IMG/VR virus record: IMGVR_UViG_3300045988_111815
Coordinates: 80,893 to 144,892 of that record
Length of the DNA stretch: 64,000 nt
Origin: a virus
Reading direction: 5' to 3' (one strand)
How positions within the stretch are numbered: position 1 is the stretch's first letter; each line of letters begins with the position of its first letter. Both the position numbers and the translations under genes were made by a program. The notes under the pieces are model-generated. The model had not been told where the DNA came from. It did not search any database and saw only the letters and a program-made list of their open reading frames with translations. This document shows, piece by piece, positions 61,769-64,000 of the stretch.

Positions 61769-62141
61769 TTATTATATCTGCCATATTCGTTTCTTCCATC
61801 ATTCCGTATTTCAAAAATCATCTTCTTATGATCTTTGCCTGGTAACTTATCTTTAACAGCCTATATTACGCCCGCTATAGACGTGAATCCTGAATCTGTT
61901 ATTGAACACAGCAACACACCTCTGTTGGCGCCGGTGCTTATTGCTGACGCCTTTATAATATCATTTTTATATATTCTCATAATCTTTTGTTTTATTATCT
62001 ACAAACTTATCTATATCGTCTCTTATTCTTTTTAGCACTCCGGCTATAATTTCCGGCATCTCTCCTTCGGTACGGTTCAGAGTTTCTATCACCCCATCAA
62101 TCCTACCAATTTGACGCCATAAGAAATTGGCGTCTTTCGCA

Positions 62142-62390
62142 TTAAATTCCCTCATCATGTCTTATTTTACAGTAAACAACTTGCTTTTTTAAGCACCAGT
62201 CTTGCGATTCTGAGAGTGAACACCGTTCGGAGTTGTTAAAAAATATACAATCTTTGCAGAACATAAGAGGATCTTCGTCGTCACCAACTACTTTGACATC
62301 ATACTCTATACCATACAATTTTAATCTAAATACATCTCCTGTTTTTTTAGAAGACAAATCCATGTTCGGACCGAATGTTATTACTTCCAT
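62142..62390 (-). CDS. Small Cys-rich protein, CEGCIF-motif family member 2 (82 aa)
   Basis: MEVITFGPNMDLSSKKTGDVF…FCKDCIFF. Clear N-terminal and Cys-motif similarity to 63584..63844. Confidence 0.45.
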   Translation of the reverse strand: MEVITFGPNMDLSSKKTGDVFRLKLYGIEYDVKVVGDDEDPLMFCKDCIFFNNSERCSLSESQDWCLKKQVVYCKIRHDEGI

Positions 62391-62410
62391 ATAATTATGT
62401 TTTATTGTTT

Positions 62411-62504
62411 GTGAGATGCCCAGAATCGAACCAGGACCGGCACATACATACCGGCACGCCGCGCCATCCCTCTATGATACACAAATAGACATGCCTATTC
62501 TCAC
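62411..62504 (-). ncRNA. tRNA-like structured element A (not foldable by eye as a canonical tRNA)
   Basis: On the minus strand this 94-nt span reads GTGAGAA…GGTTCGATTCTGGGCATCTCAC. The 5' GUGAGAA pairs with the 3' AUCUCAC (6/7). A T-arm-like GGUUCGAUUC sits next to the 3' strand. Internal GC-rich hairpins are present. It lies directly upstream of the 62390 start. Confidence 0.3.
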
Positions 62505-62563
62505 GAACCGACATGCCAAAACCCAAAACTTAATTTGATGAATAAAATAGATTAACAAAAATA

Positions 62564-62887
62564 CTATTCTAATTCTTTTATAATGTCTTTTATGATATTT
62601 AGCCTCACCTCCTTCGTTTCTGGACTAATACAGCCAAACCATCCATATATCCTCCATTCTTCTTCTGGTTCTGTAGCCATACTTTTCTTTTCCTCCAATT
62701 CCGGGAAATATGTTTTCACCATTTTATCTAAATATAGCCCATAAAAGGATTCTATTTTTTTAGGAGTACTGAAAAACTTAAATACTATATTTCTCAACAT
62801 GACGCATATATAATTCCCATCCTCTAACCTTTCGATATTCTCATATACCTTTTTCCAAATGAATAATCGCTCTTCTTTTGTAAACAT
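62564..62887 (-). CDS. Hypothetical protein (107 aa)
   Basis: ORF only. Confidence 0.4.
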   Translation of the reverse strand: MFTKEERLFIWKKVYENIERLEDGNYICVMLRNIVFKFFSTPKKIESFYGLYLDKMVKTYFPELEEKKSMATEPEEEWRIYGWFGCISPETKEVRLNIIKDIIKELE

Positions 62888-62895
62888 ATCTTTCT

Positions 62896-63243
62896 TTATT
62901 TTTGTGGTATTATTTGACTGTACGCAGACTTTTCCATGTACACAACACTATGTTCCTGTCCAAGTATTTTCTTTGCTGCTTCTTTCTTTATCGCGCAATA
63001 TCTCCCTGTACGATACGGATTCTTTTGATCTGATCCATCCTCGACTTCGATAATAAAACAACCTCCGTCATCTATTATCTTTTTGCAATTGTCACATATT
63101 TCTCCCGTGCATATATGATGCGGCGCCTGCCCTTTGATGTTATTTCCTAATAAAGCAATCCCCATCTCTTCGCCACATATCATGCAGACTTCTATAGACG
63201 GATTCAATCCGTGTTCTGGATATAATGTAATACCATCTTTCAT
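62896..63243 (-). CDS. Zn-ribbon/Cys-rich protein (115 aa)
   Basis: CMICGEE…CTGEICDNCKK…GGCFIIEV. Preceded by the AGGAGG-like AAAGGAGGAAAGAAAATG. Confidence 0.45.
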   Translation of the reverse strand: MKDGITLYPEHGLNPSIEVCMICGEEMGIALLGNNIKGQAPHHICTGEICDNCKKIIDDGGCFIIEVEDGSDQKNPYRTGRYCAIKKEAAKKILGQEHSVVYMEKSAYSQIIPQK

Positions 63244-63282
63244 TTTCTTTCCTCCTTTGTTTTTAATGTTGTGTGAGATCGC

Positions 63283-63406
63283 CGGAATCGAACCGACCTA
63301 CCGCACCATGAATCCCATAAAGCAAGTGCTCCGATCTTCGCAGACGGGAGCACTTTGTCTAAAGCATAAGAAAATTAATGAAGAAATTTTTCTCACTTAC
63401 GCCATA
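63283..63406 (-). ncRNA. tRNA-like structured element B, second copy of the family
   Basis: On the minus strand the span reads GTGAGAAAAAT…GTCGGTTCGATTCCGGCGATCTCAC. T-arm-like GTCGG-TTCGATT-CCGGC. Internal perfect 7-bp hairpin GTGCTCC…GGAGCAC (plus 63329-63356). It shares a ~45-nt block with element A (GTGC.GGT..GGTTCGATTC.GG..ATCTCACA.AACA.TAAAA). Confidence 0.3.
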
Positions 63407-63583
63407 GCATCTAAAATAGCTATCAGCACTATTTCTATGACAAACATAATAGAAAATATCTTAAATGCCTTTTTCATATCGCTATCTCCTCCTTTTTATT
63501 TTTTTAGTTCCACAATAAACTGTTCCGGCTCTGCTCCGACCTACGTTCCACCTACAACCGCAGGCCTTAGCCCAAGGCGCCGC

Positions 63584-63844
63584 CTACTTCCCCTCTATGG
63601 CAGCCTGTTCGTACCTACAAAGCCAGTCTCCATCTACACAACTATCACTACTCGATAATAAACATTTATTCTTATAACAATCATGAAAAATACACCCCTC
63701 ACAACTGTAATCCTTAACTTCTGCACAGCTAACTACCTTAGCATATACTATACCATCACTACCTTCTATTCCTCTTACCCCAAAAATAGAACCTTCTCCC
63801 TCCTTACTCAAATCTAAGTCAGGTGCAAAATCATATACGTTCAT
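63584..63844 (-). CDS. Small Cys-rich protein, CEGCIF-motif family member 3 (86 aa)
   Basis: MNVYDFAPDLDLSKEGEGSIF…SCEGCIFHDC…. Confidence 0.45.
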   Translation of the reverse strand: MNVYDFAPDLDLSKEGEGSIFGVRGIEGSDGIVYAKVVSCAEVKDYSCEGCIFHDCYKNKCLLSSSDSCVDGDWLCRYEQAAIEGK

Positions 63845-64000
63845 GTTGTTTATATTTTAATTGTTAAACATTCCGATTACTACTAATCTATTGAATTTTG
63901 CGGAATAAACTCACATTATGCTGTTTTAAAACGCTGATCTGTTGAATTTTGTTGGAAAAAACCTACAGAATGATGTTTTAAAACCCTGTAAGTCTTGATT

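What the first reader, a model, noticed from the sequence alone, without database searches (positions are those of the whole stretch)
63244..63583. tRNA-like structured element B, a second copy of the same family 870 nt away
The minus strand here contains GTCGG-TTCGATT-CCGGC (a foldable T-arm) followed by GATCTCAC. The 3' segment pairs with a GTGAGAA 124 nt upstream. A perfect internal 7-bp hairpin (GTGCTCC…GGAGCAC) is also present. A ~45-nt block is shared with element A, including the downstream AACA(A/T)T(A/T)AAAA upstream-of-start motif. Two copies with conserved termini and divergent interiors look like a small family of structured elements that punctuate the early genes.
Basis: seen in the sequence. 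Interest (0 to 1): 0.55.

Follow-up and report, generated by a model that had tools for sequence, protein, structure and literature searches.

The report
tRNA-like RNA element in gut phage
This stretch between two small genes of a human-gut crAss-like phage is a conserved, folded RNA element that copies the "T-arm" of a transfer RNA without being a tRNA; it belongs to a small undescribed family whose likeliest, but untested, job is to mark where host tRNA-processing enzymes cut the phage's long transcripts.

Summary
On the minus strand, B (window 63261-63396) has a T-arm (GTCGG-TTCGATT-CCGGC), a 3' TCTCAC that can pair with GTGAGA 117 nt upstream, and a hairpin that extends to 9+4 bp with a GCGA tetraloop. 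It is not a tRNA: ARAGORN and Rfam find nothing, and no anticodon arm exists. It is not a host-tRNA fragment or a copy of the phage's own tRNAs.

The window is ~90% identical to epsilon crAss-like phage crAssE-Sib. B and A recur in more than 100 related contigs. A third copy (D) lies just outside the window, a divergent D' occurs in a second species, and a degenerate copy (C) sits at 63520-63590.

Covariation supports the hairpin and the T-stem; the loop-closing G-C pair never changes. Most parts of the element vary less than synonymous sites, its 5' segment and 3' tail about tenfold less. The closing helix is the minimum-energy fold for D, D' and isolated B, but has no covariation and is out-competed by a local hairpin in A.

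Alternative genes follow each element's tail at roughly 50:50 frequency.

Best reading: a new phage family of tRNA-mimic elements, closest in design to plant-mitochondrial t-elements (RNase P/Z signals). The function is inferred, not shown.

The parts
63391..63396 (-). B: GTGAGA, the 5' strand of the proposed closing (acceptor-like) helix P1. It starts directly after the stop codon of the 26-codon ORF.
   Evidence: Sequence. It is paired with 63273-63278 in the minimum-energy fold of the isolated element, with pair probability 0.69-0.80. It is 97.5% paired across 61 unique variants but shows no two-sided changes, and it is broken in L033, L087 and L060. Shuffle p is about 0.08.
63356..63390 (-). 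B: AT-rich, almost invariant segment (AAAAATTTCTTCATTAATTTTCTTATGCTTTAGACA). It resembles the AT-rich box upstream of A (TTCATyAAwTT). Its function is unexplained.
   Evidence: Nucleotide diversity is 0.013 for 63356-63396, against 0.10-0.14 at third codon positions of the flanking ORFs. Nearly every column is invariant in alignment A1. The motifs are not enriched elsewhere in the window.
63324..63355 (-). B: long hairpin P2, consisting of a 9-bp stem, a C/C mismatch, a 4-bp stem and a GCGA (GNRA) tetraloop.
   Evidence: Present in every predicted fold. Three pairs change on both sides (AU/GC/GU; UA/CG; CG/AU), 25 cells in all, and 0 of 500 shuffles reach this. The loop variant GAGA is still GNRA; the rarer ACGA, GCAA and GTGA variants are not all GNRA.
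63298..63323 (-). B: linker between the hairpin and the T-arm. Its GGGAT motif is shared with A, and a related GGAAT occurs in D. Its last 7 nt (GCGGTAG) are the most variable patch, analogous to a tRNA variable loop.
   Evidence: Variants are GCGGTAG, GCAGCAA, GCAGCAG, GCAACAG and GAAATAG. Diversity is 0.058.
63281..63297 (-). B: T-arm mimic, GTCGG-TTCGATT-CCGGC. GGTTCGATTCC matches the tRNA pseudouridine-arm consensus GGTTCRANYCC exactly.
   Evidence: T-stem pair probability is 0.96. Within B copies there are wobble-type changes plus one fully compensated G-C to A-U change in L245. Across the A/B/D/D' alignment the stem is 100% paired, 4 of 5 pairs change on both sides, and the loop-closing G-C is invariant. 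The consensus motif is from PMC1920247.
63273..63280 (-). B: GA junction followed by TCTCAC, the 3' strand of closing helix P1.
   Evidence: Shared with A as nATCTCAC. Part of the covariance-model hit at 63259-63306.
63261..63272 (-). B: A-rich tail ACAACATTAAAA. Its 3' edge is a polymorphic gene-cassette junction.
   Evidence: Diversity is 0.011 for 63261-63280. In 77 unbiased copies the tail is followed either directly by the 115-aa gene's RBS (39 copies) or by an extra 134-aa gene (37 copies).
63520..63590 (-). C: degenerate family member. It has CATAGAGGGGA..GCGGCG, as A does, and GGTG..GTAGGTCGG-AGCAGAG-CCGG, as B's T-arm region does, but the loop is no longer a T-loop. It overlaps the end of the 86-aa ORF.
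   Evidence: Sequence comparison. Diversity is 0.044. It is not detected by the covariance model and has no closing helix. Two variants carry an 11-nt deletion within it.
63397..63477 (-). 26-codon ORF (MKKAFKIFSIMFVIEIVLIAILDAMA) with a strong Shine-Dalgarno sequence, lying between C and B. Its stop codon abuts or overlaps P1.
   Evidence: It is intact in about 97% of copies, with conservative hydrophobic substitutions. There is no third-codon-position excess in diversity, 0.050/0.027/0.022.
62399..62563 (-). Element A, the paralogue of B. It comprises an AT-rich box (62518-62563), local hairpin H1 with a GUGA tetraloop (62488-62517, containing GTGAGA at 62499-62504), a variable linker, the T-arm CCTGG-TTCGATT-CTGGG (62419-62435), CA+TCTCAC (62411-62418) and the tail AAACAATAAAAC (62399-62410).
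   Evidence: The AT-box diversity is 0.003.

Best explanation
Element B (window 63261-63396, minus strand) is one member of a small, previously undescribed family of tRNA-mimic RNA elements in epsilon crAss-like phages. It is transcribed with the surrounding same-strand genes.

Its fold has three parts. First, a closing helix (GTGAGA/TCTCAC). Second, one irregular arm, a long hairpin capped by a GNRA tetraloop, in place of the D and anticodon arms. Third, a genuine T-arm copy that sits next to the 3' strand of the closing helix. An unstructured A-rich leader and the next gene's start codon follow about 30 nt later.

It cannot decode, because it has no anticodon loop.

The most likely mechanism is inferred by analogy with plant-mitochondrial t-elements. 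The stack of acceptor-like helix and T-arm would be recognised by the host's tRNA-maturation nucleases. RNase P would cut at the 5' side, and RNase Z would cut after the 3' strand, which carries no encoded CCA. The long co-directional transcript would thereby be cut into units. Each downstream mRNA would receive a short A-rich 5' leader, and a small stable tRNA-like RNA might be released.

Shown here: the family exists, it is conserved, the T-arm and hairpin structures are real, the structure is specific to the sense strand, and the elements sit just upstream of start codons.

Inferred: the closing helix in vivo, recognition by RNase P/Z, and any cleavage.
For: 1. It is not a tRNA but it carries a true T-arm signature.
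- ARAGORN finds 0 genes. Rfam finds nothing at gathering score or at E<=10.
- B matches the pseudouridine-arm consensus GGTTCRANYCC exactly. That motif was used to discover t-elements.
- The pattern of conservation mirrors tRNAs. T-loop positions 54-58 and the closing G-C pair are invariant across A, B, D and D'. Positions 59-60 vary. The only change at position 57 (G to A, L051) keeps a purine.

2. Structure.
- The T-stem is 100% paired in 65 cells, 4 of 5 pairs change on both sides, and 0 of 500 shuffles reach this.
- B's hairpin has 3 compensated pairs.
- The inner stem of D's arm switches among ATCT/GGAT, ATCT/AGAT, ATTC/GGAT and ATTC/GAAT. D' switches between TACAG/CTGTA and TATAG/CTATA.
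- G-U pairs are frequent in the T-stems, and they would be C/A mismatches on the opposite strand. The helices therefore form in the sense-strand RNA.

3. Closing helix.
- For D the three-way-junction model is exactly the minimum-energy fold. For both D' variants it is nearly so. In these copies the 3' strand abuts the T-stem directly, giving stacks of 6+5 and 7+5 bp.
- The isolated B element's minimum-energy fold contains the helix with probability about 0.8.
- D and D' have unrelated helix sequences, GGTTGT/GCAACC against TCCGGCT/AGCCGGG.

4. Purifying selection.
- Diversity in 80 loci gathered without reference to the element is 0.011-0.013 for B's 5' segment and tail, and 0.041 for the T-arm. 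Third codon positions of the flanking ORFs are at 0.10-0.14.

5. Position.
- All copies lie on the coding strand, with the T-arm ending 28-37 nt before a start codon.
- The phage's real tRNA-Cys ends 16-17 nt before the next gene's ATG. The four phage tRNA genes inspected all lack encoded CCA, so the phage already has a 'tRNA, short A-rich leader, gene' layout that depends on endonucleolytic 3' processing. That tRNA-plus-leader even scores 21 bits with the family model.

6. Precedent.
- t-elements direct RNase Z/P cuts at mRNA ends (PMC1920247).
- Bacterial RNase P processes phage M3 RNA, P1/P7 C4 RNA and polycistronic mRNAs (PMC11143913).
- In crAss-like phage phi14:2, intergenic RNAs of the early region are abundant and stable, and their function is unknown.
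Against: - There are no transcript-end or cleavage data of any kind.
- In A and B the closing helix is separated from the T-stem by a 2-nt mismatch on each side. In the second species' A the junction is 3 nt. This is unlike the continuous 12-bp stack that RNase P and RNase Z measure.
- The closing helix of B has no covariation. It is broken without compensation in L033, L087 and L060, and A's 3' strand has diverged in L016.
- In A the local hairpin H1 out-competes the helix (0.99 against 0.0), and A's wobble-rich T-stem is thermodynamically weak.
- Shuffle support for the helices is modest: p = 0.08, 0.09, 0.10 and 0.02-0.03.
- The most conserved parts are the AT-rich boxes, with diversity of 0.003 and 0.013. 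A processing signal does not explain them.
- With flanks included, B's 5' strand prefers other partners.
- The family is confined to one genus-level cluster plus one related species. More distant relatives that encode the same neighbouring protein lack it (L204, L205, L206).
Confidence: 0.4

Rival explanations
1. It is a stand-alone small non-coding RNA whose tRNA-like elbow is the functional part. It would act as a decoy or sponge for a host factor that recognises tRNA T-arms. Candidates are tRNA-targeting defence nucleases, modification enzymes such as TrmA or TruB, the CCA-adding enzyme, or a Ro/Rsr-type quality-control protein as for YrlA RNAs. It would not be a cleavage signal for mRNA maturation.
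For: The structural and conservation evidence is the same as for the main explanation. Abundant, stable non-coding RNAs from early intergenic regions are documented in a crAss-like phage. The phage encodes RNA-repair-type enzymes, polynucleotide kinase/phosphatase and an NrnA-like phosphodiesterase, next to its tRNA cluster in the same gene array. This hints at a conflict over tRNA. The irregular arm, with its GNRA tetraloop and conserved GG-containing internal loop, could build a tRNA-like elbow.
Against: No promoter or terminator delimits the element. There are 0 terminator-like sites, and sigma-70-like sites occur at chance level. Rfam gives no match to Y-RNA-like or any other family. The constant 28-37-nt distance to a start codon and the conserved A-rich tail point to a link with the downstream gene. 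No defence system that cuts T-arms is implicated by any result here.
Confidence: 0.2
2. It is a cis-acting 5' leader, possibly combined with a promoter in the AT-rich box, that controls stability or translation of the downstream gene. The T-arm-like hairpin would then be just a stable structural module. The invariant AT-rich segment would be the real functional site: a promoter or operator, a protein-binding site, or an anti-RBS.
For: The AT-rich boxes are the most conserved parts, with diversity of 0.003 upstream of A and 0.013 in B. They are homologous between A and B and lie at the same distance (25-27 nt) from a hairpin of the same design, which suggests a unit of box plus hairpin plus leader. 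Read by eye from the sequence, B's box contains AUUUUCUU, complementary to AAGAAAAU at the start codon of the 115-aa gene. In A, two mutually exclusive folds exist, H1 against the tRNA-like fold, as a riboregulator would need.
Against: The box motifs are not enriched elsewhere in the window, so they are not a general promoter. There is no sigma-70-type signal above chance. D and D' have no such box, yet they keep the T-arm, the arm and the closing helix. This reading does not explain why the hairpin loop must keep the exact tRNA T-loop consensus and the invariant closing G-C across paralogues whose stems are completely different. Complementarity to the RBS is not seen for A.
Confidence: 0.2
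3. It is a recombination or module-boundary element acting at the DNA level. Conserved non-coding linkers would provide homology for swapping small gene cassettes, as proposed for the promoter-stem-loop cassettes of T4-type phages. That comparison is recalled from memory and was not checked here. Any RNA fold would be incidental.
For: Gene content changes exactly at the 3' edge of both tails, and the alternatives are near 50:50 in the population. After B, 39 copies lead straight into the 115-aa gene and 37 have an extra 134-aa gene. After A, 46 copies are of one class and 31 of the other. Internal duplications and deletions occur at short direct repeats (L065, L039, L071, L013).
Against: Compensatory and wobble-type substitutions that keep helices only on the sense strand indicate selection on RNA structure. 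Recombination homology does not require a tRNA T-loop consensus. There are only three copies per genome and they share only about 40 nt. The junctions can equally be a consequence of conserved elements acting as crossover points.
Confidence: 0.08
4. These are decaying remnants of former tRNA genes (pseudo-tRNAs) with no present function. They would look conserved only because the sampled phages are very close relatives.
For: All main-cluster contigs are 90-95% identical, so absolute conservation is uninformative. Decay variants exist: L183 has lost half of A's T-arm, L013 has lost A's 5' part, and region C has lost the T-loop. Phages of this group carry real tRNA genes.
Against: Parts of the elements are up to about tenfold less diverse than synonymous sites in the same genomes, and most other parts are also below those sites. 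Helices are maintained by compensatory change. The T-loop is identical in three paralogues whose remaining sequence has diverged beyond alignment, and the module is kept in a second species whose flanking non-coding DNA is unalignable. No cloverleaf remnant, D arm or anticodon arm, is detectable.
Confidence: 0.07
5. It is a genuine but unusual tRNA, tRNA-Sec-like RNA or tmRNA-like gene, or the 3' half of a host tRNA kept as a phage attachment site.
For: It has a T-arm and an acceptor-like 3' strand. The 8-nt GATCTCAC resembles the 8-nt acceptor strand of bacterial tRNA-Sec. That comparison is from memory and is a lead only.
Against: ARAGORN (tRNA and tmRNA) finds nothing in the window or in any relative. 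No Rfam tRNA, tRNA-Sec or tmRNA hit appears at E<=10. The arm loops have 4, 5 or 9 nt and vary freely among close relatives, so there is no anticodon. No bacterial genome among 185,579 species carries this T-arm plus 3' strand. The only hits were a fragment of the phage itself and one chance match inside a coding region. The four annotated phage tRNAs differ from it. The published analysis found no integrase.
Confidence: 0.02

Closest known systems
Plant-mitochondrial t-elements: tRNA-like processing signals for RNase P and RNase Z (Forner et al. 2007, PMC1920247)
   Same: Both are non-canonical tRNA-like folds built around a perfectly conserved pseudouridine arm (GGTTCRANYCC) plus an acceptor-like helix, with no decoding function. 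Both are embedded in longer transcripts just upstream of mRNA 5' ends or just after coding regions. In B the element starts directly after a stop codon, and all copies end 28-37 nt before a start codon. Neither has an encoded CCA.
   Different: These elements are in a dsDNA phage of gut bacteria, not an organelle. Their second arm is a long hairpin capped by a GNRA tetraloop or a 5-nt loop, rather than a degenerate cloverleaf. A and B have a 2-3-nt mismatch between the closing helix and the T-stem. B carries a 35-nt invariant AT-rich insert. Cleavage has been shown for t-elements and is untested here.
Other tRNA-mimic processing modules: MALAT1 mascRNA, gammaherpesvirus MHV68 vtRNAs, and non-tRNA substrates of bacterial RNase P such as phage M3 RNA and P1/P7 C4 antisense RNA (PMC11143913; mascRNA and MHV68 from memory)
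   Same: All use a tRNA-like acceptor/T-arm shape to recruit tRNA-end-processing enzymes to a non-tRNA transcript. There are viral and phage precedents.
   Different: No sequence or model-level similarity was found (Rfam). Those RNAs keep a fuller cloverleaf or a simple hairpin+CCA-like substrate. None is described as a repeated intergenic element between phage protein genes.
tmRNA tRNA-like domain and bacterial/phage Y-RNA-like YrlA RNAs (from memory)
   Same: Each has an acceptor-like helix plus a T-arm, with the anticodon region replaced by other structure.
   Different: ARAGORN's tmRNA search and the Rfam families give no hit. There is no tag reading frame in the tmRNA arrangement, no pseudoknots and no Ro-binding helix. 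The elements are much smaller (about 62 nt for D and D', about 125 nt for B).
Promoter-stem-loop cassettes at mobile gene boundaries in T4-type phages (from memory, not checked in the library)
   Same: Both are conserved non-coding elements with a stem-loop that flank small, exchangeable genes. Here, alternative genes follow each element's tail at roughly equal frequency.
   Different: No promoter is demonstrated here. The conserved hairpin is a tRNA T-arm copy with RNA-level covariation. There are only three copies per genome.

Membership tests
Canonical tRNA (Rfam RF00005; ARAGORN) | Cloverleaf with a D arm and a 7-nt anticodon loop | tested here: not met
   ARAGORN finds 0 genes in the window and in relatives. 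There is no tRNA hit at E<=10, even for the compact D and D' copies. The only internal arm has loops of 4, 5 or 9 nt that vary among close relatives.
Canonical tRNA (Rfam RF00005; ARAGORN) | T-arm: 5-bp stem, 7-nt loop with the TTCRANY consensus, and a G53-C61 closing pair | tested here: met
   B has GTCGG-TTCGATT-CCGGC. The stem is 100% paired across paralogues with 4 of 5 pairs covarying, and the closing G-C is invariant.
tmRNA | tRNA-like domain joined to a tag-peptide reading frame and pseudoknots | tested here: not met
   ARAGORN's tmRNA search is negative. There is no Rfam tmRNA hit. The 26-codon ORF lies upstream of the element and has its own Shine-Dalgarno sequence and ATG.
Y-RNA-like (YrlA) and other curated structured RNAs of Rfam 15 | A match to the family covariance model | tested here: not met
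   Nothing at gathering thresholds over the whole window. Only chance-level miRNA, sRNA and lncRNA hits at E<=10 over B, A, D and D'.
t-element-type tRNA-like processing signal (functional class, PMC1920247) | A conserved pseudouridine-arm motif, GGTTCRANYCC, outside any tRNA gene | tested here: met
   B has GGTTCGATTCC, an exact match. A has GGTTCGATTCT (10 of 11). D has GGTTCGATTCC or ...CT.
t-element-type tRNA-like processing signal (functional class, PMC1920247) | An acceptor-like helix closing a non-canonical tRNA-like fold next to the T-arm | tested here: inconclusive
   It is the minimum-energy fold for D, D' and isolated B. But there is no covariation, some variants are uncompensated, and shuffle p is only 0.02-0.10 per element. 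In A it is out-competed by a local hairpin.
t-element-type tRNA-like processing signal (functional class, PMC1920247) | Element ends that coincide with mapped transcript ends, and cleavage by RNase P/RNase Z | not testable with these tools
   No transcriptome or biochemical data are available for this uncultured phage.
Intrinsic (rho-independent) terminator | A GC-rich hairpin followed by a U tract | tested here: not met
   There are 0 terminator-like sites in 61800-64000. The T-arm and the hairpin are each followed by mixed or A-rich sequence.
Phage attachment site derived from a host tRNA 3' half | Identity to the 3' part of a bacterial tRNA gene, plus an integrase | tested here: not met
   A scan of one genome for each of 185,579 species found only a fragment of the phage itself and one chance coding match. 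The crAssE-Sib authors report no integrase.

The most novel reading that the evidence does not exclude
Epsilon crAss-like phages carry dedicated tRNA-mimic modules, built from a T-arm, an acceptor-like helix and one GNRA-capped arm. These modules would hijack the host's tRNA-maturation machinery (RNase P, RNase Z, perhaps CCA addition and T-loop modification) to cut their long co-directional transcripts into separately translatable mRNAs. At the same time they could release stable tRNA-like small RNAs that may act as decoys. The same modules would also serve as the joints at which small accessory genes are exchanged between phage genomes. If so, this would be a 'tRNA punctuation' system, so far known from organelles, operating in a dsDNA bacteriophage.
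Probability: 0.3. Interest if true: 0.72.

Novelty: new variant of a known kind. Interest (0 to 1): 0.52.

Why it matters
crAss-like phages are among the most abundant viruses of the human gut, yet almost nothing is known about how their transcripts are made and processed. Early intergenic RNAs of unknown function have already been seen in one cultured relative.

A conserved tRNA-mimic element sitting at the junctions between small, frequently exchanged genes gives a concrete and testable handle. It predicts specific RNA ends, specific host enzymes (RNase P and RNase Z) and specific mutations (the T-loop, its closing G-C pair, the closing helix).

If confirmed, it would extend tRNA-like 'punctuation' of mRNAs from organelles to bacteriophages. 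It would add a new RNA family to the catalogue, since none in Rfam 15 matches it. It would also link RNA processing signals to the modular evolution of phage accessory genes. If the decoy reading is right instead, it would be a new kind of RNA-based interference with host tRNA biology.

Tried and rejected
- Canonical tRNA or tmRNA. ARAGORN was negative on the window and on 12 relatives.
- Any curated RNA family. Rfam found nothing at gathering score on the window, and the permissive runs on B/A, L209, D' and D gave only chance hits.
- Copy of one of the phage's own tRNAs. The 3' halves of Met, Gln, Arg and Cys differ.
- Host tRNA fragment or att site. No bacterial match was found.
- Sigma-70 promoter or intrinsic terminator. 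Promoter-like sites are at chance level and there are no terminators.
- The AT-rich motifs TATGCTTTAGAC and TTCATYAAWTT as general promoter boxes. They are not enriched in the window.
- Pfam annotation of seven neighbouring ORFs. Nothing was found.
- More distant phages encoding homologues of the downstream 115-aa protein (Bacteroides phage BS162P1, MT835482, and L206 at 60% identity). They have no T-arm element in the loci examined.
- Scans for more D'-type and second-species A-type copies in IMG/VR. These returned 0 hits or 3 unrelated GC-rich coding matches.
- RNAalifold's alternative terminal helix for A (GUUUUGGG with CUCACAAAC). It cannot be distinguished by counts, and the second species' variant GTTTGTAT weakens it.
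- A local alternative for B (TGGTG pairing with CAC-A-CA), proposed by RNAalifold. I wrote the structure string but did not count it. All of its columns except one (C-to-T in L050) are invariant in A1, so the count could hardly be informative.
- An anticodon-like reading of CTTTAGA in B (anticodon UUA). I rejected this because the would-be U33 and neighbouring positions vary (CCTTAGA, CTTTAAA).
- Similarity between the long non-coding gaps upstream of D and D'. There is none.
- D and D' precede non-homologous genes, so their orthology rests on architecture and on a short shared sequence only.
Full report
**What is at the coordinates**

All features lie on the minus strand. Reading 5' to 3':
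- The 86-aa ORF ends at 63584.
- A GC-rich stretch follows ('C', about 63520-63590, overlapping the end of that ORF).
- Next comes an A-rich run with a strong Shine-Dalgarno sequence and a 26-codon ORF (63397-63477).
- Element B proper runs from 63261 to 63396.
- The RBS and ATG (63243) of a 115-aa ORF follow.

B itself consists of:
- GTGAGA (63391-63396);
- a 35-nt AT-rich segment;
- a long hairpin, AAGTGCTCC-C-GTCT-GCGA-AGAT-C-GGAGCACTT (63324-63355);
- a 26-nt linker;
- the T-arm GTCGG-TTCGATT-CCGGC (63281-63297);
- GA plus TCTCAC (63273-63280);
- the tail ACAACATTAAAA (63261-63272).

The 7-bp hairpin is really 9+4 bp with a GNRA tetraloop. Element A lies 862 nt downstream and shares a 38-nt block at 76% identity.

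The exact T-loop 10-mer GGTTCGATTC occurs only in A and B in the whole window.

**What it is not**

- ARAGORN finds no tRNA or tmRNA in the window or in any related locus.
- Rfam 15 gives nothing at gathering thresholds. At E<=10 it gives only chance-level hits over A/B, over a whole related locus, and over the compact D' and D copies.
- The phage's own annotated tRNAs (Met, Gln, Arg, Cys) have different 3' halves.
- A scan of one genome for each of 185,579 bacterial and archaeal species for the T-arm plus 3' strand returned two hits. One is a 3.9-kb fragment of this phage binned into a MAG, and the other is a chance match inside a coding region. The element is therefore not a host-tRNA fragment or an attachment site.
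- No intrinsic terminator is present, and no sigma-70-type promoter signal exceeds chance.

**Where it comes from and how widespread it is**

The window is about 90% identical to phage crAssE-Sib (OR575929, 151 kb, human gut). This is an epsilon crAss-like phage of the proposed genus Epsilonunovirus. Its published analysis reports six tRNAs and annotates nothing in this region.

Eighty further loci fetched through the downstream protein also carry them, and these are unbiased with respect to the element.

A third member, D, lies about 1.2 kb beyond the window's end in the same co-directional gene array. It is present in 97 IMG/VR stretches and in crAssE-Sib at about record position 525.

A second, more divergent species (L211, L284-L286; a 151-kb contig) carries an A copy and a divergent D-like copy, D'.

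A covariance model of the shared 3' module finds only A and B in the 64-kb window; the next hit scores 10.9 bits. In relatives it finds exactly A, B and D, or A and D'.

Region C is a degenerate fourth copy. It shares CATAGAGGGGA..GCGGCG with A and GGTG..GTAGGTCGG-N7-CCGG with B, but it has lost the T-loop.

More distant phages that encode homologues of the neighbouring protein lack the element in the loci examined.

**Structure**

Two helices are firmly supported.

- B's hairpin has three pairs that change on both sides across 61 unique variants, 25 cells in all, and 0 of 500 shuffles reach this.
- The T-stem within B shows wobble-type changes and one fully compensated pair, in L245.
- In a 13-sequence alignment of chosen A, B, D and D' variants, the T-stem is 100% paired in 65 cells. 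Four of its five pairs change on both sides. The loop-closing G-C pair never changes, as G53-C61 does not in tRNAs.
- T-loop positions 54-58 are constant and positions 59-60 vary. The one change at position 57 keeps a purine.
- G-U pairs are frequent in these stems, so the helices form in the sense strand and not in its complement.

The compact copies reveal the family plan:
- D reads GGTTGT-A-GCAT-AAA-ATCT-loop5-GGAT-AGGA-ATGC-GTG-[T-arm]-GCAACC.
- D' reads TCCGGCT-ACAC-TG-TACAG-loop-CTGTA-GGC-GTGT-CA-[T-arm]-AGCCGGG.

That is a closing helix whose 3' strand directly abuts the T-stem, giving stacks of 6+5 and 7+5 bp, plus a single irregular arm. The inner stem of that arm covaries in both D and D'. 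Its loop varies freely (CTATA, GTATA, GTACA, ATATA; GATAA or the GNRA loop GTGA), so it is not an anticodon.

For D this three-way junction is exactly the minimum-energy fold, and for both D' variants it is nearly so.

**The closing helix in B and A**

It also contains the hairpin and the T-arm (probability 0.96). The z-score is -2.6.

The evidence for this helix is nevertheless limited:
- It shows no covariation.
- It is broken without compensation in L033, L087 and L060.
- It is separated from the T-stem by a 2-nt mismatch.
- Its shuffle p-value is only about 0.08, and the values for A, D and D' are 0.09, 0.10 and 0.02-0.03. By my own combination of these values, the joint figure is about 0.01.
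- With flanking sequence included, B's 5' strand pairs elsewhere.

In A, GTGAGA lies in the GUGA tetraloop region of a local hairpin, H1. By position relative to the AT-rich box, H1 looks like the homologue of B's hairpin. With flanks, H1 has probability 0.99 and the long-range helix 0.0. Pair counts cannot separate the competing models for A.

**Selection**

Nucleotide diversity was measured in the 80 unbiased loci.

| Region | Diversity |
|---|---|
| Third codon positions of flanking ORFs | 0.10-0.14 |
| B 5' segment (63356-63396) | 0.013 |
| B tail (63261-63280) | 0.011 |
| B T-arm | 0.041 |
| B hairpin (changes compensated) | 0.063 |
| B linker | 0.058 |
| AT-rich box upstream of A | 0.003 |
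| A linker | 0.12 |

Most of the element is therefore under purifying selection, and its 5' segment and tail strongly so. The linkers before the T-arm behave like a tRNA variable loop.

The unexplained point is that the most constrained parts are the AT-rich boxes, which no structural model requires. Their motifs are not repeated elsewhere in the window.

**Context**

All copies are on the coding strand, and each T-arm ends 28-37 nt before a start codon, followed by an A-rich leader.

Gene content changes exactly at the 3' edge of the tails. After B, 39 of 77 copies continue straight into the 115-aa gene, as in this window, and 37 have an extra 134-aa gene, as in crAssE-Sib. After A there are two classes, of 46 and 31 copies.

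The phage's genuine tRNA-Cys ends 16-17 nt before the next gene's ATG. The four phage tRNA genes inspected lack an encoded CCA. That tRNA plus its leader scores 21 bits with the family model. The phage thus already uses a 'tRNA, short A-rich leader, gene' layout that depends on endonucleolytic 3' processing.

**Mechanism**

The design consists of an acceptor-like helix stacked next to a canonical T-arm, no decoding arm and no CCA, embedded between genes. This is the design of plant-mitochondrial t-elements. Those were found by screening for GGTTCRANYCC and were shown to direct RNase Z/RNase P cuts at mRNA ends (PMC1920247).

Bacterial RNase P is known to process phage M3 RNA, P1/P7 C4 RNA and polycistronic mRNAs (PMC11143913). 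A cultured crAss-like phage makes abundant, stable intergenic RNAs of unknown function from its early region, and its early transcripts share no upstream motif.

I therefore favour a processing-signal ('punctuation') role, with possible release of a stable tRNA-like RNA, at a confidence of about 0.4. This is inference. No RNA-end or cleavage data exist.

Rivals that remain open:
- a stand-alone decoy RNA (0.2);
- a cis-regulatory leader or promoter unit centred on the AT-rich box (0.2);
- a DNA-level recombination joint (0.08);
- functionless tRNA remnants (0.07), which the selection and covariation data contradict.

**Novelty and verdict**

No Rfam family matches. The crAssE-Sib paper does not mention the elements, and full-text searches found no description of tRNA-like intergenic elements in crAss-like phages.

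It is a new RNA family that works on a known principle, tRNA mimicry, so I rate it a new variant of a known kind.

Noticed in passing
window 63520-63590 (-): A degenerate fourth family copy, 'C', directly after and overlapping the end of the 86-aa ORF. It shares CATAGAGGGGA..GCGGCG with A and GGTG..GTAGGTCGG-N7-CCGG with B's T-arm region, but its loop (AGCAGAG) is no longer a T-loop and it has no closing helix. It is still fairly conserved (diversity 0.044), and two variants carry an 11-nt deletion within it.
   Followed up: partly
window 63397-63477 (-): A 26-codon ORF (MKKAFKIFSIMFVIEIVLIAILDAMA) with a strong Shine-Dalgarno sequence. It is intact in about 97% of copies, with conservative hydrophobic substitutions, yet it shows no third-codon-position excess in diversity. 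It is probably a real small membrane peptide. Its stop codon (TAA, or TGA in some variants) abuts or overlaps the 5' strand of B's closing helix, so translating it could affect folding of B.
   Followed up: partly
window 63356-63390 (-) and 62518-63563 region: A box at 62518-62563 (-): AT-rich boxes sharing TTCATyAAwTT are the most conserved sequences of the whole region, with diversity of 0.013 and 0.003 against 0.10-0.14 at synonymous sites. Each lies 25-27 nt upstream of a hairpin of the same design. In B the box is inside the element, and in A it is upstream of it. The motifs are not repeated elsewhere in the window. Their function is unexplained; candidates are a promoter or operator, a protein-binding site, or an anti-RBS.
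   Followed up: partly
window 63883-63988 (+ coordinates; repeats D3 and D5): Two tandem copies of a unit of about 51 nt (..GGTTTTAAAACAnCAT..TTCCAACAAAATTCAACAGAT.. on the minus strand), upstream of the 86-aa ORF. They lie in the roughly 900-nt non-coding gap that contains the PhageTerm-defined ends of the crAssE-Sib record. They may be promoter, packaging or terminal-repeat related.
   Followed up: no
window 63584-63844 (-) and 62142-62390 (-): The 86-aa and 82-aa Cys-rich small ORFs are paralogues (34% identity over 71 aa, pairwise E = 1e-7). One lies just upstream of C and B, and the other just downstream of A. Neither has a Pfam domain.
   Followed up: partly
window 63261 / L001:1453-1847; window about 62399-62401: Presence/absence polymorphism of whole small genes exactly at the element tails. 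After B there is an extra 134-aa ORF in crAssE-Sib and in about half of relatives (37 of 77). After A there are two alternative downstream gene classes (46 against 31 copies).
   Followed up: partly
L209:1107-1692, L214:2129-2705 and L285:9181-10001 (outside the window): Family members D and D' sit at the 3' ends of long non-coding gaps of about 580 and 820 nt. These gaps are slightly GC-richer than the loci they lie in, have no Rfam match, and are unalignable between the two species. L214 shows further gaps of 620 and 914 nt in the same co-directional array. They may be long non-coding RNAs like those reported for phage phi14:2.
   Followed up: partly
L201 (OR575929 2615-7027, minus strand): The same co-directional gene array contains a tRNA cluster (Met, Gln, Arg, Cys; none with encoded CCA). 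Close by are a polynucleotide kinase/3'-phosphatase and an NrnA-like phosphodiesterase, that is, RNA-repair-type enzymes. tRNA-Cys ends 16-17 nt before the start codon of the next gene.
   Followed up: partly
L203 (NZ_DXLG01000138.1): A 3.9-kb contig assigned to a 'Veillonella sp.' gut MAG is simply a fragment of this phage: the 26-codon ORF, B and the 115-aa gene. This is most likely a binning artefact and not evidence about the host.
   Followed up: no
L065, L039, L071, L013, L183 (variants of element A): Structural polymorphisms in A at short direct repeats. These are a tandem duplication of the GGCATGTC..GTGAGGATA unit (L065), loss of one of the GTGCCGGT repeats (a 14-nt deletion; L039, L071), a deletion that removes the 5' half together with the upstream gene (L013), and loss of half of the T-arm (L183).
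   Followed up: no
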